DNA of 32,000 bases, from contig CP104013.1 of NCBI GenBank assembly GCA_025839675.1, positions 2,220,001-2,252,000 of the forward strand, in the 5' to 3' direction. Positions 3,490 to 11,799 of this stretch are shown here, in pieces. Positions within the stretch are counted from its first letter, which is position 1. Each line of letters opens with the position of its first letter. This DNA is from Candidatus Lokiarchaeum ossiferum (GTDB lineage: Archaea; Asgardarchaeota; Lokiarchaeia; Sigyniarchaeales; Promethearchaeaceae). The notes beneath the pieces were generated by a model that saw only the letters and a list, made by a program, of their open reading frames with translations, was not told the DNA's origin and ran no database searches. The translations under genes and the position numbers were made by a program.

Positions 3490-5115
3490 TTGATGAAAAC
3501 TCGTAAAGAAATTGTGATATTTGGTCTGGTATTTGTTATATTTCTTAGCTTTTTTGGGATATTTTCCATTTTTCCAGCAAATATTCGTCGAACTTACAAT
3601 CAAACAACGGTGACTTCAGATGGTGTATCAATTGTTTATGATATCTTTGAACCAAATTCAGATACACCTTCATTAAGAACTGGTGTTATTCTGGGACATG
3701 GAGTGATGGTGAATAAAAATTTCATGCGAACTATTGCCCTCGATCTTGCTTCCCAAGGGTTTGTGGCAATAGCTTTAGATTTTCGGGGACATGGAAGGAG
3801 TGGTGGAACTCTTGAGGAAGGTGATATCACTACTGATATTCTCGCCATTAAGGAAGTAATGGCTCAACGGGGAGATATTAATATGACCAATCTTGGCTAT
3901 ATAGGCTATTCTATGGGAGGTGGAGCGGGATTTCGATTATTGGATACCGATCCAGATTTTAAAGCCATGGTAAGTCTGGCAGCAGGGGGAAGAACTCAAT
4001 ATAATACCCCAAATTTGTTAATTCTTCAAGGTAAATGGGATGAAGCATTTAGTTTAACGGGAGTTTTGGAATACATGACAGATAAAACAGGTCTTTCGGA
4101 AGAAGAAATTGAAACGGATCGTTTGTATGGATCTTTTCAGAATGGAACGGCATTGAAACTGTGTATCGCCAATACTGATCATCTTCTGGCACCTTACAAT
4201 TATAATAACGTCCGAGAAACGAGATTTTGGTTTTTACAAGCCTTGAATGGAGAAACATCCCCGAATTCCACCTTCACAAATTATTTTCTGCTTCTTTCTA
4301 GTGTGATCTTAGCAACTTTATCTGGGATTTATTTATTTCTCTTAGGAACAGATCTGGTTTTATCGAAAATTTACCCTTCATTGCAACCGAAGGAACTAAC
4401 TGAAGCAAATTTAGTATTAGATCAATCTGAATTGAAAGTAGTGATGCGCAAGTATTGGATATTTGTCCTCCCCCTATCAATCCCTTGTATGGTTCTGGCT
4501 TTACCTTTGCTACCCGTCCCAATCTTTAATATGGTTCTCTTTTCAGCATTATTATTGGGACCTTCCACTGCAATATTACTTTTTCAGTTTTATATCCTGA
4601 AGAAAAATGGGATGAAATTGAAGGAGTATTATTCTCAATTTTGGACTAAATCCACCATCAAAAATTGTTTTACGGGGCTCCTTTTTGGTATGCTTTTTTA
4701 TATCATCCTTAATTTGACAATAGGATATATTTTTGGAATTGTTCCAAGCACTACCAAATGGGGATGGGCAATATTATTCTTTGTGGTTATGCTTTTCATC
4801 CAATTTAATCTTGCACAATTTTTCCAACCCGTTGTGCTTCAAGGAAACGGCTTTAATACATTAAAACAAAAATTTCGGGGACAATGGTCGGTTTTTATTT
4901 TATTTTTTAGCCCGATAGTGATGCTGGTTTTGATATCCCTTTTGATCTTCCAAAGTTGGTTCAATATACAATTTCTTCTCCCGCTACTTCCATTGATTAT
5001 AATCATAAATCTCATTTCTGGGAGGTTTTACCAAAGAAGTCATGATGTGATGATAGCTGTATTTACAAATAGTTTGTACTTAACGCTTCTCTTGATTACT
5101 CTCGCAAATTACTAG
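3490..5115 (+). CDS. Alpha/beta-hydrolase fused to a C-terminal polytopic membrane domain
   Basis: 541 aa. N-terminal TM anchor (IVIFGLVFVIFLSFFGIFSIF). Hydrolase core with HG oxyanion region (GHGVMVNK), DFRGHGRSGG, nucleophile elbow GYSMGG, and later QGKWDE and NTDH (Asp/His candidates). The last ~280 aa are strongly hydrophobic with about 8 predicted helices. TTG 3490 or ATG 3493. Confidence 0.7.
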   Translation: MMKTRKEIVIFGLVFVIFLSFFGIFSIFPANIRRTYNQTTVTSDGVSIVYDIFEPNSDTPSLRTGVILGHGVMVNKNFMRTIALDLASQGFVAIALDFRGHGRSGGTLEEGDITTDILAIKEVMAQRGDINMTNLGYIGYSMGGGAGFRLLDTDPDFKAMVSLAAGGRTQYNTPNLLILQGKWDEAFSLTGVLEYMTDKTGLSEEEIETDRLYGSFQNGTALKLCIANTDHLLAPYNYNNVRETRFWFLQALNGETSPNSTFTNYFLLLSSVILATLSGIYLFLLGTDLVLSKIYPSLQPKELTEANLVLDQSELKVVMRKYWIFVLPLSIPCMVLALPLLPVPIFNMVLFSALLLGPSTAILLFQFYILKKNGMKLKEYYSQFWTKSTIKNCFTGLLFGMLFYIILNLTIGYIFGIVPSTTKWGWAILFFVVMLFIQFNLAQFFQPVVLQGNGFNTLKQKFRGQWSVFILFFSPIVMLVLISLLIFQSWFNIQFLLPLLPLIIIINLISGRFYQRSHDVMIAVFTNSLYLTLLLITLANY

Positions 5116-5285: not shown

Positions 5286-6176
5286 TTAACTTCTTAGAAA
5301 AGCCATCTTTTCTTCCAAGTTTAATTCTTTAAAATTCCCAGTTTTTCCATCGATGGTATCTACAATAATATTCTCTAAATCGTCATTATCCACAACGGTA
5401 GATCTAATCGCAAGCTGAATTGATTCATCCAATGACATTTCATCAGAAAATTTTGTCAAAATTTCTTTAGTTATTTTTTCACGCTCATTTCCTATAGCTA
5501 CAACTCTAGTTTCATGAATAGAACCCGATGGATCAAGTAGGAAGAGTTTTGGGCGATTAGTTAAATCAAATCCGCCAATAATAAAACAAGCACCCAATAC
5601 TCGCAAGTCTTTGTTTAAGGTGAATTTGTGGAGAAAAAAAGAAAGATCTTCAACTAAAGCGTAAATATCCACAGATTCATTCTTTGTATTCTGATTCATT
5701 ATCTCTTTCGCTTTTTTCATTACTAATTTCCCGTCGGCCATGATTCCAGTCATAGAGATCTCAATTTTTTTTGAAAGTTTTTGCAGTGGTCTCGTATATT
5801 CATTATATCGTAAAGCTGAAAGATCTGGATGGCAAGCAGGGGATTTTCTTTTTAAAAGCACTAATCCATTTTTAGTTTGAATTCCTAAAGATAATAATCC
5901 CTTTTCTGAAGCAATTGTTGCATATTCCACTTGTAAAATTCTTCCATCGGGAGAAAATACTGATTCGAGATCATAGTCTTTAGACCATGCAGTTGGAACA
6001 CTAGACAAATACTGTGTTATTGCACTTCTAACAATCTCTGCTTTATTACCAGCAATTCCGGCACGAATTAAAGAATCTAAGGTTTTTTCCATATTTTCTG
6101 GAATAATTATTCGTAATTCAGGCATATTTTTCACATACTCAAAATTTTTATAGTTATATATCCATCTATAATACAT
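5286..6176 (-). CDS. Proteasome alpha-type subunit homolog with N-terminal ribbon-helix-helix (CopG/Arc-like) domain
   Basis: 296 aa. The alpha-subunit signature YDLESVFSPDGRILQVEYA is followed by a full-length divergent alpha-type body (GIMADGKLV, LGACFIIGGFD, PKLFLLDPSGS, AIGNE). It is preceded by RIIIPENMEKTLDSLIRAGIAGNKAEIVRSAITQYL, which has an RHH pattern. Alternative start ATG 6125 (MPELR). Confidence 0.75.
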   Translation of the reverse strand: MYYRWIYNYKNFEYVKNMPELRIIIPENMEKTLDSLIRAGIAGNKAEIVRSAITQYLSSVPTAWSKDYDLESVFSPDGRILQVEYATIASEKGLLSLGIQTKNGLVLLKRKSPACHPDLSALRYNEYTRPLQKLSKKIEISMTGIMADGKLVMKKAKEIMNQNTKNESVDIYALVEDLSFFLHKFTLNKDLRVLGACFIIGGFDLTNRPKLFLLDPSGSIHETRVVAIGNEREKITKEILTKFSDEMSLDESIQLAIRSTVVDNDDLENIIVDTIDGKTGNFKELNLEEKMAFLRS

Positions 6177-6251
6177 TAAATGGTTAATATAATGGAGTCA
6201 AAATACTTATTTAAAATTGATTGGTAAAAATCCCATCCAGAGGGAATAAAA

Positions 6252-6449
6252 ATGAAAATAATTGATATTCTAAGAAATTCAATAAAAACAACAATTGATG
6301 AGAGAGGAAGAATTTACATTCCTAAAATGGTTCGTGAGCAATATAATTTAGTAAGCAATGATGAATTGTTTATTTTACTTCACAAAGATTGTTTTTATAT
6401 CTATTCAAGCCAAAATCTTGAAAAATTATTTAAAAACATAAAACATTGA
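6252..6449 (+). CDS. AbrB/SpoVT (MazE-like) swapped-hairpin DNA-binding protein
   Basis: 65 aa. TIDERGRIYIPKMVREQYNLVSNDELFIL matches the SpoVT-AbrB domain pattern (GRxxIPkxxRexxxl..gdxl). Divergent from the RHH-proteasome gene. Confidence 0.6.
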   Translation: MKIIDILRNSIKTTIDERGRIYIPKMVREQYNLVSNDELFILLHKDCFYIYSSQNLEKLFKNIKH

Positions 6450-6740: not shown

Positions 6741-8504
6741 ATGTATGTTGTTATGAGACATATTTTTTTCCATGGGCCCAAACCTCATCCCGTAAAAGCG
6801 CCTGTTAAATTACCTCTTATCTTTTTAGTGTCTCTTTTACTTCTAAATTCCATACTCGGTTTATGTTATAATCAGAAGACTCAGATTTACTCCCAAGGTT
6901 TAATAAATAGTGAAGAAATTGAATTTAATTCCAAAGATGGAACCTTAATATCAGGGGATCTGTACTTTCCACCATTATTCAGCGAGGATCTCGCACCCTC
7001 TTCATTAAATCTGATCATAATATTACATGGATATCAATCCCATAGAGGAACTTTGACGAATGAAGCATTAAATTTGGCTATGGATGGATATGTTGTTTAC
7101 ACTCCCGATTTGCGGGGACATCAAAAATCAGAAGGAATTTTCACATTTGGTCTACAAGAACCTCAAGATATCTTAGAAGGGCTTCAGATCATTTGCGATG
7201 AGTTCGAGTCTATTGACCCAAATAATGTCGGTCTTCTTGGAAAATCATTTGGGGGCACGATTGCTTTATTGCTTTGCAACCAAAGTAGTATTTTTAAATC
7301 TTGCGTAGCAATGGCCCCAGCAAGTAACCTCTCTAAACTATTACAAAATAATCCAGGATGTCCATCATTGTTTGGGCTTTCTTATAATTATCGTTCAACC
7401 CAAGAAAATATGATTAGGAATCCATCTAATCCCAACAATAACTATGATCAATGTTCAATTCTTTTAATCCATGGCGAACAAGACTCCTTAATCGATGTTT
7501 CATATTCAATCGAGTTCTATGAATCTTTTTTGAATCCATCCAAAGACAATCTTACCATTTTATCTGATTGTAATCACCGGAATGTGGATGGAGTTGAAGC
7601 TCAACACTTAAGTTGTTCTTGGTTTGATCAAAAATTCCATGTAACCACTACTCAAAATCAGATTGTAATGTTACCATTGCTGATTTTAGATTTCTACTGG
7701 ATTCGACTTCTCTTATTTCTTATTAGTGCCGTTATTTTTGGAAATATTAGTAAAAAACTATTTTTTTCACACCTAAGCGAACAAAAACCAAATTTATCTA
7801 AAAATAATTCAGAAATGTTTCAGAACCTTGAACAAAAACATTATTTATCGGATAATAACACTCCGATATTATTAGAAGGCATTTTTTTTATTTTGGGTGG
7901 AAATTTTTGTAATTTTCTAGGTCTTAGTGCATTTTTAGGATTTTTAATTTGCCTTTGCTTCTGTGATTTTATTGCTCTAGGATTTTATCTTGGATTTAAA
8001 AAGAAAAAACAACAATTACATATAGAATGGCGAACCCTATTAAAAACACTCATATTTTCTTTAGTTTTCCCTATGATTTTGATCCCCTATAATCAAATTG
8101 GATACATTTGGAATTTTCCTCAAGTCAATGCACCGGTGTGGAGCTTCTTACTATTATATTCCCTTCTTCTATTAACAACTACTTTTGAATTGAAGCATTA
8201 TAATTTGTTAAAAAATAATTCAAAGGTACCATTCCACCAATATGATCAAACAACTATATTCCGATATATTATTTTTCTGATTTGCTTCTTTTCCCAATTT
8301 CAACAAAAATTCGCCATTTCGGTGGATTTAATCTCAAACTTAACGATCATCGGACCTGCTATAATTCTTTTCTTCATTGCACTATTTTATCTGGGAATCA
8401 TCACTTTACAAAATATCGGGGAAATTAAATTGTTTTATACGAGTGCGCCAGTGTGTTTGTTTTTTACAGCGATCTATTTTCTATTTTCAACGCGAATATT
8501 CTAA
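6741..8504 (+). CDS. Alpha/beta-hydrolase fused to a C-terminal polytopic membrane domain (second copy of this architecture)
   Basis: 587 aa. N-terminal TM (LPLIFLVSLLLLNSILGL). HGYQSH, DLRGHQKSEG, nucleophile elbow GKSFGG, LIHGEQDSLI, CNHRN. The C-terminal ~280 aa are multi-TM. Start could also be ATG 6753. Confidence 0.7.
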   Translation: MYVVMRHIFFHGPKPHPVKAPVKLPLIFLVSLLLLNSILGLCYNQKTQIYSQGLINSEEIEFNSKDGTLISGDLYFPPLFSEDLAPSSLNLIIILHGYQSHRGTLTNEALNLAMDGYVVYTPDLRGHQKSEGIFTFGLQEPQDILEGLQIICDEFESIDPNNVGLLGKSFGGTIALLLCNQSSIFKSCVAMAPASNLSKLLQNNPGCPSLFGLSYNYRSTQENMIRNPSNPNNNYDQCSILLIHGEQDSLIDVSYSIEFYESFLNPSKDNLTILSDCNHRNVDGVEAQHLSCSWFDQKFHVTTTQNQIVMLPLLILDFYWIRLLLFLISAVIFGNISKKLFFSHLSEQKPNLSKNNSEMFQNLEQKHYLSDNNTPILLEGIFFILGGNFCNFLGLSAFLGFLICLCFCDFIALGFYLGFKKKKQQLHIEWRTLLKTLIFSLVFPMILIPYNQIGYIWNFPQVNAPVWSFLLLYSLLLLTTTFELKHYNLLKNNSKVPFHQYDQTTIFRYIIFLICFFSQFQQKFAISVDLISNLTIIGPAIILFFIALFYLGIITLQNIGEIKLFYTSAPVCLFFTAIYFLFSTRIF

Positions 8505-9211: not shown

Positions 9212-9597
9212 TTATTTCATAAGAAGGGCAGGAGTAATATCTTGCAAACTTCGTACCCCTGTCATCAACATTGCTTTTGCAAGATCCTTCTGGAGATATT
9301 CCATTTGTAATTGAACCCCTCTTGATCCACCTCCAATCGCAGCACGAACAACATCCCTTCCAATTAGCACGGCTTCCGCCCCTAAGGCGAGCATTTTCAA
9401 TACATCAAAACCTGTCCGGACGCCTCCATCCACCAAAATTTTGATTTTTCCATCAACGGCTTTAACAATTTCAGCTAAAACGGAGGCAGTACCAGGAGTG
9501 CAATCTAGTACTCTCCCTCCATGATTGGACACCATAATGGCCGAAGCTCCTGTCTTCACAGCCATTAAAGCATCTTCCACGGTCATAATCCCCTTGA
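9212..9597 (-). pseudogene. FMN-dependent alpha-hydroxy-acid dehydrogenase/oxidase (LldD/LOX family), C-terminal third only (fragment 1)
   Basis: The ORF 9212..9586 product VSNHGGRVLDCTPGTASVLAEIV...ILVDGGVRTGFDVLKMLALGAEAVLIGRDVV...GVQLQMEYLQKDL covers only the last ~125 residues of a ~350-aa TIM-barrel enzyme. Homology stops at ~9597, where the 27-bp module begins. Confidence 0.8.
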
Positions 9598-9963: not shown

Positions 9964-11799
9964 ATGATTAAGATAAAAAGATCAAAAAAATATAACTCAT
10001 TTATTTTTCAATTTTCTCTTTTATCGATTATCTTTCTTTTTCTATTGCTTCATTTTAGGACCGAAATGGTAAATAACGCAGAAAATCCGCCGAAAAATCA
10101 CAATTCAGAAGATTTCCCCGCTCCTTCCAGTGATGATTCAACAGCGTTTCTCTCAGTGTGGAATTCTCAGAAATCAAGTTATGGATCAAGTGCTCAAAAT
10201 CAAATTCATCTCCCCTTAATCTCAAATGGTAACTATAATTTCTTAGTACAGTGGGGAGATGGGAAAAAGGATAACATTACATCCTATTCGGATAGCAATA
10301 TTACCCATACATATTCAAAACCAGGGATTTATAATGTGATTATCACTGGAAAATTGGTGGGATGGAGCTTCAATTTTACGGGTGATAAAGATAAGATAGT
10401 AGAAATATCACAATGGGGGACGTTGAATTTAGGAAATGAAGGAAGTAATTTCGCGGGTTGTACAAACTTAAATCTCACTGCTACCGATGCATTAAACTTA
10501 ACGGAGACAACAACATTATATCGTGCTTTTTATGGGTGCGATAATTTAGGTAATATGGGAAATATGAGCAAGTGGGATGTTTCGAGAGTATTAAACATGG
10601 GCTCTATGTTCCTCGGCGCAGATAGCTTCAATCAAGACATTTGCAATTGGAATGTCTCAAGTGTTCTAAATATGAATAGAATGTTTTGTTATTCATCTAT
10701 GTTCAATCAAGATATCGGAAATTGGAATGTCTCGAAAGTTACGGATATGAGAGATATGTTCTATAGGACGCTTGCCTTCAATCAAAATATTGGTATTTGG
10801 AATGTCTCGAAAGTTTTGAAAATGGATTTTATGTTTTGCGGCGTAGATACATTCAACCAAGACATCGGAAATTGGGATGTATCTAATGTTATTAATATGA
10901 AATATATGTTTAATGGCGCATCTCTCTTCAATCAAGACATTGGAAGATGGAATGTTTCCAATGTTGTCAATATGGAGCACATGTTTAGTGATACATCAGC
11001 CTTCAATCAAGATATTGGAAGATGGAATGTATCCAATGTTGTCAATATGGAGCATATGTTTAGTGATACATCAGCCTTCAATCAAGATATCGGAGGTTGG
11101 GATGTTTCGAGTACCGAAAATATGAATGGATTGTTTTATTATGCATCTGTTTTTAATCAAGATATCGGAGGTTGGGATGTTTCGAGTGCAACATCTATGG
11201 CATCAGTTTTCAAAGGATCATCTGTTTTCAACCAAAATATTGGAGAATGGAATGTCTCAAATGTCAAAGAAATGGGACATATGTTTAATGGCGCATCTGC
11301 TTTCAATCAAGACCTCGGAAATTGGGATACTTCGAGTGTCTTGAATATGGATTCGATTTTTTGTTATGCATCTGCCTTCAATCAAGATATCGGAAGATGG
11401 AATGTTTCAAGAGTTACAGATATGAGGTCAATGTTCTACCGAGCAACATCTTTCAACCAAGATATCGGAAGCTGGGATATCTCAAGAGTCACAAATATGG
11501 AAGATATGTTCTTTGGGATTAAATTATCTACAGAAAATTACGACTCCTTGTTAACTAGTTGGGCACAACTTTCATTACAACATGGAGTGAAATTTAATGC
11601 AGGAAACTCTCAATACAGCTCAGGAGAAGCGGCAATAAAACGAGATTATATTATAAATACTTTTGGATGGGAAATAATTGATAATGGAGAAATTGAGAAC
11701 AATCGCCATATTTTTGGTTTTTCTTTAGAAATTTTAATTGGTTGCATTGGGATCACATCCTTAGGGTTATTCAAAAAAAAAGATCGATTTAGATTCTAA
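9964..11799 (+). CDS. BspA-like / DUF285-type repeat surface protein (26-residue-repeat family)
   Basis: 611 aa. N-terminal signal/anchor (FIFQFSLLSIIFLFLLL). Domain WGDGKKDNITSYSDSNITHTYSKPGIYNVIITG. Then 12-13 repeats of ~25 aa with FNQDIGxWNVSxVxxMxxMF. C-terminal hydrophobic helix plus KKKDRFRF. Confidence 0.85.
   Translation: MIKIKRSKKYNSFIFQFSLLSIIFLFLLLHFRTEMVNNAENPPKNHNSEDFPAPSSDDSTAFLSVWNSQKSSYGSSAQNQIHLPLISNGNYNFLVQWGDGKKDNITSYSDSNITHTYSKPGIYNVIITGKLVGWSFNFTGDKDKIVEISQWGTLNLGNEGSNFAGCTNLNLTATDALNLTETTTLYRAFYGCDNLGNMGNMSKWDVSRVLNMGSMFLGADSFNQDICNWNVSSVLNMNRMFCYSSMFNQDIGNWNVSKVTDMRDMFYRTLAFNQNIGIWNVSKVLKMDFMFCGVDTFNQDIGNWDVSNVINMKYMFNGASLFNQDIGRWNVSNVVNMEHMFSDTSAFNQDIGRWNVSNVVNMEHMFSDTSAFNQDIGGWDVSSTENMNGLFYYASVFNQDIGGWDVSSATSMASVFKGSSVFNQNIGEWNVSNVKEMGHMFNGASAFNQDLGNWDTSSVLNMDSIFCYASAFNQDIGRWNVSRVTDMRSMFYRATSFNQDIGSWDISRVTNMEDMFFGIKLSTENYDSLLTSWAQLSLQHGVKFNAGNSQYSSGEAAIKRDYIINTFGWEIIDNGEIENNRHIFGFSLEILIGCIGITSLGLFKKKDRFRF
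10516..11520 (+). repeat. Coding tandem repeats, ~75-bp period, 12-13 units
   Basis: The FNQ(D/N)IG motif recurs every 24-25 codons. Units 10927..11001 and 11002..11076 differ at only 3 of 75 nt, and all three differences are synonymous. Confidence 0.9.

What the first reader, a model, noticed from the sequence alone, without database searches (positions are those of the whole stretch)
5286..6449. Proteasome alpha-type subunit fused to an N-terminal ribbon-helix-helix domain, divergent from an AbrB/SpoVT-like gene
The segment RIIIPENMEKTLDSLIRAGIAGNKAEIVRSAITQYL has the strand / helix / G-x-N turn / helix layout of CopG/Arc-type RHH DNA-binding domains. It runs straight into the diagnostic alpha-subunit signature YDLESVFSPDGRILQVEYA and a complete, divergent alpha-type body. 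In canonical 20S particles only about 10 residues precede the YD(R) motif, and they form the gate over the axial pore. A 50-60 aa obligately dimeric DNA-binding fold at that position does not fit a standard gated heptameric ring. A 65-aa AbrB/SpoVT swapped-hairpin protein is encoded 76 bp away on the other strand. Two antitoxin/transition-state-regulator-type DNA-binding folds therefore share one control region with a proteasome-like gene. I am not aware of a described RHH-proteasome fusion. It could be a self-regulating or DNA-tethered proteasome-like assembly, or an alpha-fold protein recruited to a non-proteolytic role.
Basis: partly seen in the sequence, partly recalled or inferred. Interest (0 to 1): 0.75.

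Follow-up and report, generated by a model that had tools for sequence, protein, structure and literature searches.

The report
DNA-binding proteasome alpha-subunit paralogue, AbrB-paired
This Lokiarchaeum gene encodes a proteasome alpha-type subunit with a ribbon-helix-helix DNA-binding domain in place of the gate tail; the same unrecognised fusion occurs in at least three archaeal phyla, usually next to a divergent AbrB-type regulator gene, and probably represses its own gene.

Summary
The ORF 5286-6176(-) exists, but homologues all start at MPE[IV]R, so the true start is ATG 6125. That gives 279 aa and a 126-bp gap to the AbrB gene.

Residues 51-279 are an alpha-type 20S fold (Pfam, PDB, Foldseek). 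[quoted passage not shown] The structural test was inconclusive.

The fusion is not a Loki oddity. It is a distinct alpha paralogue clade in Asgard (Loki, Hod), Bathyarchaeota and Thermoplasmatota. Databases name it "proteasome subunit alpha", "peptidase" or "hypothetical". I found no paper describing it.

The RHH is more conserved than the body (E3, R5, K28, E30, R33 invariant). The divergent AbrB gene is conserved in 57 of 61 long-form loci.

A 14-bp dyad, TCCATWT|AWATGGA, lies at -24 in 26 of 29 Bathyarchaeota promoters, against 3 of 93 control ORFs. Related motifs occur in AbrB-less loci.

Gate and ring residues are kept. The activator-docking Lys66 is lost in the Asgard clade and kept in short-form Thermoplasmatota proteins. 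In one clade of those, a PAC2 gene ending in an HbYX motif follows the fusion.

Best reading: an autoregulatory, DNA-binding alpha-ring paralogue. Incorporation into a 20S particle is untested.

The parts
5286..6125 (-). Coding sequence of the RHH-alpha fusion (279 aa plus stop). The true start is ATG 6125-6123.
   Evidence: ORF. All homologues start at MPE[IV]R. 100% identical to the NCBI protein 'Proteasome subunit alpha [Candidatus Lokiarchaeum ossiferum]'.
6000..6125 (-). Ribbon-helix-helix domain, residues 1-42: strand 3-9, helix 10-22, turn G23-x-x-G26-N27-K28-A29-E30, helix 26-42.
   Evidence: Pfam RHH_1 19.8 bits against a cut-off of 20.5. Family-level RHH hits. hhalign against NikR/CopG 88.7%. 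ParD is the best PDB profile hit. AlphaFold2 secondary structure is coil 1-9, H10-22, H26-42. E3, R5, G23, K28, A29, E30, R33 and A35 are invariant in 29-30 sequences.
5976..5999 (-). Short conserved linker, residues 43-50 (VPTAWSKD). It replaces the gate tail of canonical alpha subunits.
   Evidence: P44, T45 and K49 are invariant in the Asgard clade. Length is nearly fixed across the family, with at most a one-residue gap.
5289..5975 (-). Alpha-type proteasome body, residues 51-279, starting at the YD motif and the H0 helix (SPDGRILQVEYA).
   Evidence: Pfam PF10584 and PF00227. PDB sequence hits. Foldseek hits to 20S alpha chains. Y8, D9, P17, G19, R20, E25 and Y26 equivalents are kept; R10 is Leu and K66 is Pro. 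Scores are below the NCBIfam PsmA cut-offs.
6126..6251 (.). 126-bp control region shared by the two divergent genes. It is AT-rich and has TATA-like boxes on both strands.
   Evidence: Sequence. It has the same architecture as the closest relative L068. Promoter assignments are inferred, not mapped.
6159..6165 (-). Candidate operator half-site ATGGATA, at -40 from ATG 6125.
   Evidence: The 7-mer ATGGATA/TATCCAT occurs in 7 of 10 upstream regions of family genes. It sits at the same -40 position in L060 and L065. In the window alone it is not significant.
6192..6197 (-). Candidate operator half-site CTCCAT, at -72. It forms the inverted repeat TCCAT-N26-ATGGA with the site at 6161-6165.
   Evidence: The same arrangement occurs in L068. 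Chance expectation for this spaced pattern is 1.5 per window, so it is weak on its own.
6252..6449 (+). Divergent AbrB/SpoVT/MazE-type swapped-hairpin regulator gene (65 aa). It is a conserved partner of long-form RHH-alpha genes.
   Evidence: Pfam MraZ 2.7e-5 and MazE 2e-4. NCBIfam TIGR01439 35 bits against a cut-off of 28.3. tblastn finds a homologue 86-176 bp upstream on the opposite strand in 57 of 61 long-form loci and in 0 of 16 short-form loci.

Best explanation
The gene encodes a paralogue of the 20S proteasome alpha subunit. In it, the roughly 10-residue gate tail is replaced by a CopG/NikR-type ribbon-helix-helix DNA-binding domain, joined through a short linker of fixed length.

Shown here:
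- The fusion is translated as one protein from ATG 6125.
- It belongs to an alpha clade distinct from canonical PsmA, found in Asgard, Bathyarchaeota and Thermoplasmatota.
- Its RHH is the most conserved part, and the predicted DNA-reading residues are invariant.
- In long-form members, including this one, it is paired with a divergent AbrB-type gene across a control region of about 100-130 bp.

Inferred:
- Two RHH domains pair into the usual two-stranded ribbon.
- The ribbon reads TCCAT/ATGGA-type dyad or phased sites in the gene's own promoter or 5' region, giving negative autoregulation. The AbrB protein probably co-regulates.
- The alpha body keeps the H0 helix and the gate-cluster residues, so it probably still assembles into an alpha-type ring or other oligomer. 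That oligomer would hold several RHH dimers together.
- The oligomer may also couple DNA binding to the assembly state of the proteasome, with free protein repressing and assembled protein sequestered. This logic resembles PutA or NikR.

In the Asgard clade the activator-docking lysine is lost. The window protein is therefore unlikely to dock PAN or PAC2-type HbYX partners in the canonical way.
For: Architecture and start codon.

Alpha fold.

RHH identity.

RHH more conserved than the body: mean column identity is 79% against 57% in the Asgard set and 58% against 37% in the broad set. E3 and R5 lie at alternate, outward-facing strand positions. K28, A29 and E30 lie at the N-cap of helix 2. All are invariant.

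Distinct clade: NJ tree. NCBIfam scores of 129 and 122 bits fall below the PsmA cut-offs of 219 and 287.

Conserved AbrB partner.

Operator-like elements:
- The 7-mer ATGGATA/TATCCAT is in 7 of 10 upstream regions from genomes of 34-64% GC. Poisson-binomial P~2e-8; experiment-wide shuffle P=0.003.
- In 29 dereplicated Bathyarchaeota loci, TCC[AG][TC]-N3-5-[AG][TC]GGA lies within 60 nt upstream of 26 fusion genes and of 3 of 93 other ORFs. There are only 27 occurrences in 117.8 kb.
- The element sits at -24 in 23 of the 26 loci where it was found by regex. Its spacer is itself palindromic (ATAT or TTAA) in 18 of 26. This fits a protein-bound DNA dyad better than an RNA hairpin.
- Palindromes with the same arms occur in AbrB-less loci: L001 CTCCAT-N5-ATGGAG, L060 ATGGATACA-N6-TGTATCCAT, L067 ATCCAT-N4-ATGGAG.

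Ring competence: Y8, D9, P17, G19, R20, E25 and Y26 equivalents are conserved.

Link to proteasome machinery: in the short-form P0020 clade the gene is followed after 0-13 bp by a PAC2-family gene. The four complete copies end in ...VMYG, an HbYX motif. The short forms keep Lys66 in 17 of 19.
Against: - No experiment or multimer model shows DNA binding or the oligomeric state.
- The RHH structural test was inconclusive: pLDDT 65 and Foldseek E>=2.
- The window sequence itself is 0.7 bits under the Pfam RHH_1 cut-off.
- The motif was chosen after looking at the data. The Bathyarchaeota loci are related, so part of the conservation may be inheritance.
- In the window the half-sites are 26 bp apart, and that pattern is expected about 1.5 times per 32 kb by chance.
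- In long-form loci the palindrome could equally be the AbrB protein's site.
- Seven RHH monomers cannot all pair within one heptameric ring.
- I could not check whether L. ossiferum also has a canonical psmA, so a role as a bona fide 20S subunit is not excluded.
Confidence: 0.5

Rival explanations
1. It is a structural variant alpha subunit of the 20S core particle. It forms or joins alpha rings on beta rings. The RHH domains act as a protein lid, gate or ring-ring connector rather than as a transcription factor, and the upstream motifs belong to other regulators.
For: The full alpha fold and the H0 and gate-cluster residues are retained. Short-form relatives keep Lys66, and those of the P0020 clade sit in an operon with an HbYX-ended PAC2 chaperone homologue. 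Databases already call it a proteasome subunit alpha.
Against: Lys66 is Pro in the window protein and is absent in 14 of 14 Asgard members. The Arg of the YDR motif is lost. Scores are far below the curated PsmA cut-offs. The body evolves faster than the RHH. The predicted DNA-contact residues are invariant across three phyla, which a mere lid would not need. No beta-type gene is linked in any of about 90 loci. An odd-numbered ring cannot pair all RHH domains.
Confidence: 0.2
2. The conserved palindrome is the operator of the divergent AbrB-type protein, which is the real local regulator. The RHH of the fusion binds other DNA targets or serves only as a dimerisation module.
For: AbrB is present in 57 of 61 long-form loci, and the palindrome lies between the two genes. 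AbrB/MazE-type proteins commonly autoregulate divergent or own promoters (general knowledge).
Against: TCCAT/ATGGA palindromes persist in loci with no AbrB homologue (L001, L060, L067), and related ATGGAT/ATAC[AG]T elements persist in short-form loci, where AbrB is found in 0 of 16. The motif follows the fusion gene and not AbrB. The RHH reading residues are invariant, matching a motif core that is conserved across phyla.
Confidence: 0.15
3. It is a toxin-antitoxin-like or defence module: two antitoxin-type DNA-binding folds (AbrB, RHH) controlling an effector, with the alpha-like domain or the Mut7-C RNase found downstream in Bathyarchaeota as the effector.
For: AbrB and RHH are the two commonest antitoxin DNA-binding folds. 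The best RHH hits are ParD and VapB antitoxins. A Mut7-C (PIN-like) RNase gene follows the fusion in 14 Bathyarchaeota loci.
Against: No PADLOC hit for any component. The genes are divergent, not a co-transcribed pair. There is no toxin-family domain in the window locus. The neighbours are housekeeping genes, and no integrase or transposase family was hit among those scanned. The family forms a single clade and groups mostly by phylum, though the tree is crude.
Confidence: 0.05
4. It is an artefact: two adjacent genes (a small RHH gene and psmA) merged by a sequencing or gene-calling error.
For: None beyond the unusual architecture.
Against: The same uninterrupted reading frame, with a conserved linker of fixed length, occurs in more than 100 independent contigs from isolate and metagenome assemblies of three phyla.
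Confidence: 0.01

Closest known systems
Archaeal 20S proteasome alpha subunit (PsmA; TIGR03633 / NF003075)
   Same: It has the same fold (Foldseek TM 0.8-0.88), the Proteasome_A_N signature, and the H0 helix. The Y8, D9, P17, G19, R20, E25 and Y26 equivalents are present.
   Different: A 50-residue RHH plus linker replaces the roughly 10-residue gate tail. Identity is only about 29-31%. Scores are far below the curated cut-offs. The Arg of YDR and the HbYX-pocket Lys66 are lost in the Asgard clade. The family forms a separate clade. It lies outside the exosome/proteasome superoperon context, which was seen for a canonical gene in L022.
NikR and other CopG-family RHH regulators that carry a C-terminal oligomerisation or sensor domain
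   Same: An N-terminal RHH with the same register (strand, helix, G-x-x-N-[RK]-[SA]-E, helix) is followed by a larger domain that could set the oligomeric state. Half-sites are separated by one to several helical turns, as in NikR operators. The NikR comparison rests on my own knowledge.
   Different: The C-terminal domain is a proteasome alpha fold, not an ACT-like metal sensor. No ligand is known. DNA binding is untested.
PutA (RHH fused to proline-catabolic enzyme domains)
   Same: It is a precedent for an RHH fused to the N-terminus of a protein with another primary job, where the same polypeptide represses its own operon when not engaged. This rests on my own knowledge.
   Different: PutA is bacterial, enzymatic and membrane-switching. 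Here the partner is a non-catalytic ring subunit.
Rpn4 / Nrf1 proteasome feedback loops, and PafBC next to bacterial proteasome genes
   Same: The concept is the same: transcriptional control linked to proteasome status (my own knowledge).
   Different: Those are separate transcription factors that are proteasome substrates or neighbours. Here the DNA-binding domain is fused to a core-particle-type subunit. The regulon is unknown, and only autoregulation is suggested.
Novel proteasome homologues catalogued by Fuchs, Alva and Lupas 2021 (PMC8665760)
   Same: [quoted passage not shown]
   Different: That survey selected candidates by conservation of active-site residues. The text contains none of the terms 'ribbon', 'RHH' or 'DNA-binding'. 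This family is alpha-type and has no catalytic Thr1.

Membership tests
Proteasome alpha-type subunit superfamily (Pfam PF00227 + PF10584) | Ntn-hydrolase alpha/beta sandwich fold with the alpha-specific N-terminal H0 helix and signature | tested here: met
   PF00227 74 bits (cut-off 22.4) and PF10584 33.9 bits (cut-off 27.7). Foldseek hits to 20S alpha chains at E~5e-21.
Canonical archaeal PsmA (NCBIfam TIGR03633 equivalog / NF003075 subfamily) | Score above the curated whole-protein cut-off | tested here: not met
   121.7 bits against 287.35, and 129 bits against 219. The Bathyarchaeota and Thermoplasmatota members also fall below.
Canonical archaeal PsmA | Short N-terminal gate tail (about 10-12 residues) before the YDR motif | tested here: not met
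   50 residues (RHH plus linker) precede YD. The Arg of YDR is Leu.
Canonical archaeal PsmA | Lys66 of the inter-subunit pocket that binds the HbYX C-termini of PAN, PA26 and PbaA | tested here: not met
   Pro in the window protein. It is Lys in 0 of 14 Asgard long-form members, against 14 of 14 canonical and 17 of 19 short-form members.
Canonical archaeal PsmA | Open-gate cluster Tyr8-Asp9-Pro17-Tyr26 and the H0 helix needed for alpha-ring assembly | tested here: met
   All are conserved in the window protein and in nearly all members. The functional meaning is inferred from knowledge of the T. acidophilum proteasome.
Canonical archaeal PsmA | Assembles as a heptameric ring on a PsmB ring in a 20S particle | not testable with these tools
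   No multimer modelling was available and no beta gene is linked. The rest of the L. ossiferum genome could not be searched.
Ribbon-helix-helix (CopG/Arc/MetJ) superfamily | Sequence-profile membership (Pfam RHH_1 or clan relatives) | tested here: inconclusive
   The window domain scores 19.8 bits against a cut-off of 20.5. At family level 12 of 29 members hit RHH_1 (best E 3.2e-5), 6 hit ParD, 3 hit VapB and 2 hit RHH_8. The profile retrieves proteins that pass RHH_1. hhalign against NikR/CopG gives 88.7%. I accept membership at family level.
Ribbon-helix-helix superfamily | Strand-helix-helix topology; alternating polar and hydrophobic strand residues; G-x-[STN]-[RK]-[SA]-E N-cap on helix 2 | tested here: met
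   AlphaFold2 gives an extended 1-9, H10-22 and H26-42. The strand P-E-[ILV]-R-[IV]-x-[IV]-P has E3 and R5 invariant, and G26-N27-K28-A29-E30 is conserved.
Ribbon-helix-helix superfamily | Three-dimensional similarity to solved RHH structures | tested here: inconclusive
Ribbon-helix-helix superfamily | Obligate dimer that binds DNA through the two-stranded ribbon | not testable with these tools
There is only indirect support from conserved dyad motifs.
AbrB/SpoVT/MazE swapped-hairpin regulators (the neighbour at 6252-6449) | Looped-hinge-helix AbrB domain | tested here: met
   NCBIfam TIGR01439 35 bits against a cut-off of 28.3. Pfam MraZ 24.5 bits against a cut-off of 23.
Type II toxin-antitoxin or defence system | Co-transcribed toxin partner, or a known defence component | tested here: not met
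   No PADLOC hit. The orientation is divergent. There is no toxin-family domain in the window locus.

The most novel reading that the evidence does not exclude
RHH-alpha is an alpha-ring that carries its own DNA-binding heads, in one of two ways. It may be a direct sensor-effector that represses its own gene and possibly proteostasis genes when unassembled and is titrated away on assembly; this would be the first transcriptional feedback built into a proteasome core-type subunit, and it occurs in the archaeal lineage closest to eukaryotes. Or it may be a ring that tethers a proteasome-like particle to specific DNA sites.
Probability: 0.25. Interest if true: 0.85.

Novelty: new variant of a known kind. 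Interest (0 to 1): 0.7.

Why it matters
Proteasome alpha subunits are regarded as purely structural gate-keepers. I found no description of one fused to a DNA-binding domain, and I know of no established regulator of archaeal proteasome genes.

A conserved family spanning several phyla would give a concrete, testable entry point into how archaea, including Asgard relatives of eukaryotes, sense or control proteasome assembly. In this family the gate tail is replaced by an RHH. It is paired with an AbrB regulator in most long-form loci and with an HbYX chaperone homologue in one short-form clade. Its promoters carry a conserved dyad.

The finding also corrects annotation. These genes are currently labelled 'proteasome subunit alpha', 'peptidase' or 'hypothetical', and here the ORF has an over-extended 5' end. 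This could mislead counts of proteasome subunits in Asgard genomes.

Tried and rejected
1. From the precomputed gene calls I first concluded that the AbrB adjacency was not conserved. That was wrong. The small genes had not been called, and tblastn found them in 57 of 61 long-form loci.

2. The genome-contig scan with the family alignment returned only canonical alpha or beta genes and no family member. L022 looked like a full-length match but is a canonical psmA downstream of an unrelated ORF. Taxonomic distribution among species representatives and co-occurrence with canonical psmA therefore remain unmeasured.

3. The search for homologous proteins with the broad full-length profile was swamped by canonical alphas. 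With the 50-aa profile it returned only fragments.

4. PDB profile searches of the N-terminal domain gave only marginal ParD hits.

6. RNA-hairpin reading of TCCAT-N4-ATGGA(GG) overlapping the Shine-Dalgarno sequence. Pairs 4 and 5 show 8 mismatches in 52 and only one clear double change, and the 'loop' is itself palindromic. I favour a DNA dyad, but a weak mRNA hairpin is not excluded.

7. In the window, the TCCAT-N26-ATGGA pair is not significant on its own.

8. No conserved synteny with beta subunits, PAN or ubiquitin-like genes was seen.

9. PADLOC found no defence relationship.
Full report
**What is in the window**

ORF 5286..6176(-), 296 aa, and the divergent ORF 6252..6449(+), 65 aa, exist as described. 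The large ORF is 100% identical to an NCBI protein named 'Proteasome subunit alpha [Candidatus Lokiarchaeum ossiferum]', carried on a 6.03-Mb contig. The window is therefore from that Asgard archaeon.

Residues from the YD motif onward are an alpha-type proteasome subunit:
- Pfam PF00227 scores 1.6e-20 and the alpha-specific PF10584 scores 2.4e-8.
- The best PDB sequence matches are archaeal alpha subunits at 7e-24.
- The AlphaFold2 body (pLDDT around 90) superposes on 20S alpha chains at Foldseek E~5e-21 and TM 0.8-0.88.

**Start codon**

Eight full-length homologues (38-57% identical) share the N-terminal extension. Their sequences begin, or align from, MPE[IV]R (VPEVR in P0009). So do about 110 further sequences. 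The 17 residues encoded between ATG 6176 and ATG 6125 are not conserved in any of them. That stretch contains TATA-like DNA and one of the candidate operator half-sites.

The real start is ATG 6125, giving a 279-aa protein and a 126-bp intergenic region (6126-6251). An internal start at the Met of ENMEK is excluded, because residues 2-9 are conserved at protein level across phyla, with E3 and R5 invariant.

**Is the N-terminus an RHH?**

On its own, the window domain scores 19.8 bits on Pfam RHH_1, against a cut-off of 20.5. The family-level evidence is stronger:
- 12 of 29 members hit RHH_1 (best E 3.2e-5). The other hits that recur in several members are RHH families (ParD 6, VapB 3, RHH_8 2); DUF7120 (2) is uncharacterised and three single-member hits near E 0.05 are unrelated.
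- A profile of the nine close homologues, searched against 1.84 billion representatives, retrieves standalone and tandem RHH proteins at E 1e-7 to 4e-4. These pass the RHH_1 cut-off at 22.5-54.7 bits.
- The best PDB hit of the broad profile is a ParD antitoxin RHH, E=0.021.
- hhalign against a small NikR/CopG alignment gives 88.7% probability and P=2.5e-6, in the expected register.
- AlphaFold2 predicts an extended 1-9, helix 10-22 and helix 26-42. Confidence is low, as expected for an obligate dimer modelled as a monomer.
- The top four Foldseek hits are RHH antitoxins, but at E>=2. The structural test is therefore inconclusive.

The sequence has the RHH hallmarks. The strand alternates polar and hydrophobic residues (P-E-I-R-V-x-I-P). 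Helix 2 has a G-N-K-A-E N-cap.

I accept the RHH assignment at family level.

**The fusion is a widespread, unrecognised family**

The profile search, cluster look-ups and a metagenome scan (80 loci) show two forms.

- Long form, about 273-301 aa. It occurs in Lokiarchaeum, Hodarchaeota and a large clade from Bathyarchaeota (for example MDH5448135.1 and TET20474.1, both annotated 'hypothetical protein').
- Short form, about 237-262 aa. It lacks the C-terminal 40 residues or so and has an internal deletion. It occurs in Thermoplasmatota and 'Euryarchaeota' MAGs. One 90%-identity cluster has 110 members.

Source names are 'proteasome alpha subunit', '20S proteasome alpha/beta subunit', 'peptidase' or 'hypothetical'. 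None mentions an RHH.

In a crude NJ tree of the bodies alone, without support values, all fusion proteins group apart from canonical alphas of DPANN, TACK, Helarchaeota and Thermoplasmatota. All score well under NCBI's curated PsmA cut-offs. The window protein scores 129 against 219 and 122 against 287.

The RHH is more conserved than the body: 79% against 57% mean column identity in the Asgard set, and 58% against 37% in the broad set. The linker has a nearly fixed length.

Seven literature searches and a reading of the survey of new proteasome homologues (PMC8665760) found no description of the fusion.

**What the body keeps and what it has lost**

- Equivalents of T. acidophilum Y8, D9, P17, G19, R20, E25 and Y26 are conserved. 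These form the open-gate cluster and the H0 helix, which from my own knowledge are important for gating and alpha-ring assembly. This argues that the protein still forms an alpha-type ring or ring-like oligomer.
- The Arg of YDR is never Arg in the long forms.
- Lys66, the pocket lysine that binds HbYX C-termini, is Lys in 14 of 14 canonical alphas and 17 of 19 short forms. It is Lys in 0 of 14 Asgard long forms. In the window protein it is Pro, preceded by a conserved Arg. In Bathyarchaeota it is a mix of R, Q and K.

**Genomic partners**

I first read the precomputed gene calls as showing no conserved AbrB neighbour. That was an artefact of uncalled small genes. tblastn with the window's 65-aa protein finds a homologue on the opposite strand, 86-176 bp upstream of the fusion start. 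It is present in 57 of 61 long-form loci (30 of 34 after dereplication) and in 0 of 16 short-form loci. The window protein passes the NCBIfam AbrB-domain model. The divergent AbrB / RHH-alpha pair is therefore a conserved module.

In the short-form P0020 clade, the fusion is instead followed after 0-13 bp by a PAC2-family gene (proteasome assembly chaperone 2 / PbaA-like) in five loci. The four complete copies end in ...VMYG, an HbYX motif. That fits the retention of Lys66 in the short forms and ties the family to proteasome machinery.

Other recurrent Bathyarchaeota neighbours have no obvious link: an amidohydrolase, a Mut7-C RNase and a GNAT. No beta subunit, PAN or ubiquitin-like gene is linked anywhere, and the window contains no other proteasome gene. 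There are no PADLOC defence hits.

**Control-region motifs**

In the first ten upstream regions, from genomes of 34-64% GC, the 7-mer ATGGATA/TATCCAT occurs in seven. The Poisson-binomial probability against locus background is about 2e-8. Only 0.3% of dinucleotide-shuffled sets have any 7-mer in seven or more regions. Three unrelated members, including the window, have it at exactly -40.

In 29 dereplicated Bathyarchaeota loci:
- The pattern TCC[AG][TC]-N3-5-[AG][TC]GGA lies within 60 nt upstream of 26 fusion genes and of 3 of 93 other ORFs. It occurs only 27 times in 117.8 kb.
- It sits at -24 in 23 of the 26 loci where it was found by regex, and it overlaps the GGAGG Shine-Dalgarno sequence.
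- Its 4-nt spacer is itself palindromic (ATAT or TTAA) in 18 of 26, giving a 14-bp dyad TCCATWT|AWATGGA.
- The arm variation shows wobble pairs and mismatches rather than clean compensation.

I read this as a protein-bound DNA dyad rather than an mRNA hairpin. The latter is not excluded.

Palindromes with the same arms occur in loci with no AbrB homologue: L001 CTCCAT-N5-ATGGAG plus a third site 11 bp away, L060 ATGGATACA-N6-TGTATCCAT, and L067 ATCCAT-N4-ATGGAG. The P0020 clade has hexamers ATAC[AG]T / ACGTAT / ATGGAT phased about 11 bp apart. The motif therefore follows the fusion gene and not AbrB. This matches the invariance of the predicted base-reading residues E3 and R5.

In the window itself, the sites are CTCCAT (6197-6192) and ATGGATA (6165-6159), 26 bp apart, as in the closest relative L068. 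That spaced pattern is expected about 1.5 times per window by chance. The window evidence therefore rests on the comparative data.

The caveats are that the motif was chosen post hoc, that the Bathyarchaeota loci are related, and that nothing here shows binding.

**Mechanism proposed**

Shown: a conserved RHH-alpha fusion, a conserved AbrB or PAC2 partnership, and conserved dyad motifs.

Inferred:
- RHH domains pair and bind the TCCAT/ATGGA sites, giving negative autoregulation, probably together with AbrB.
- The alpha body oligomerises, presenting several RHH dimers to phased or spaced half-sites.
- DNA binding may be coupled to assembly state, by a PutA/NikR-like logic.

I put about 0.5 on this.

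**Verdict**

The start codon needs correcting, and the scope is much broader than one Asgard genome. It is a new domain-architecture variant within the proteasome alpha family, apparently undescribed, with a plausible and directly testable regulatory role.

Noticed in passing
window 3490-5115 (+) and 6741-8504 (+): Two large proteins flank the AbrB / RHH-alpha pair. Each has an N-terminal alpha/beta-hydrolase or serine-peptidase domain (S33/S9/S15-like Pfam hits) and a long hydrophobic C-terminal half. In L058 a Peptidase_S9/APH-like gene is likewise convergent with a short-form fusion gene. This could be coincidence or a link to peptide breakdown.
   Followed up: partly
L061/L062 6742-7509; L136 4723-5508; L137 1431-2083; L139 4698-5498; L140 4736-5509: A PAC2-family gene (proteasome assembly chaperone 2 / PbaA-like) lies immediately downstream of short-form RHH-alpha genes in five loci (L137 is cut by the contig end). 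The four complete copies end in ...VMYG, an HbYX motif. In L061 a PrsW-protease gene precedes the pair.
   Followed up: partly
L067 2685-2804 (-) and L060 5704-5886 (-): In two AbrB-less loci a different small divergent ORF (39 and 60 aa; K[IV][ST]..EE[ST]YW[KR]L...RC.[ST]W.E) occupies the position of the AbrB gene. The two are similar to each other (tblastn E~3e-5 in the small database) and have no Pfam hit.
   Followed up: partly
L074 4987-5460 and 13 other Bathyarchaeota loci: A Mut7-C (PIN-like) RNase gene follows the fusion gene on the same strand in 14 loci. A GNAT acetyltransferase is convergent in a further 6 and nearby in 2 more, and an amidohydrolase lies beyond the AbrB gene in 18.
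   Followed up: no
window 6231-6245; Bathyarchaeota loci about -95 to -80 from the fusion start: A second inverted repeat lies next to the AbrB start codon. It is TCCC-N7-GGGA in the window, GGGAAT|ATTCCC in L068 and CCCGC-N3-GCGGG in Bathyarchaeota, followed by a TTCCCA-A-rich-TTTAT stretch that resembles BRE/TATA. It may be the AbrB operator or promoter.
   Followed up: no
window 9212-9586 (-): A 124-aa ORF matches only positions 227-348 of the 350-position FMN-dependent dehydrogenase profile (3.3e-44). It appears to be a 5'-truncated gene remnant.
   Followed up: no
window 9964-11799 (+): A 611-aa protein has five DUF285 repeats (575 bits, 'Mycoplasma protein of unknown function'). This is a repeat family unexpected in an Asgard archaeon.
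   Followed up: no
L068 383-1063 (protein P0011): The closest relative of the window gene is 88% identical over the RHH. It loses similarity after about residue 57 and continues as an unrelated 226-aa ORF. This is probably a frameshift or a chimeric 1-kb contig.
   Followed up: no
L101 1485, L102 2927, L132 4001, L134 232: In four metagenome loci the codon aligned with the conserved Met1 is ACG or ATA rather than ATG, GTG or TTG. This could be sequence error or a non-canonical start.
   Followed up: no
Genome-contig collection: The family-specific peptide pattern [AS]GNKAE[IL]VR confirmed no family member among 185,579 species-representative genomes. Yet NCBI MAGs and the L. ossiferum genome carry the gene. 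The cause is unexplained; the stretches may be masked or the genomes may not be representatives.
   Followed up: no
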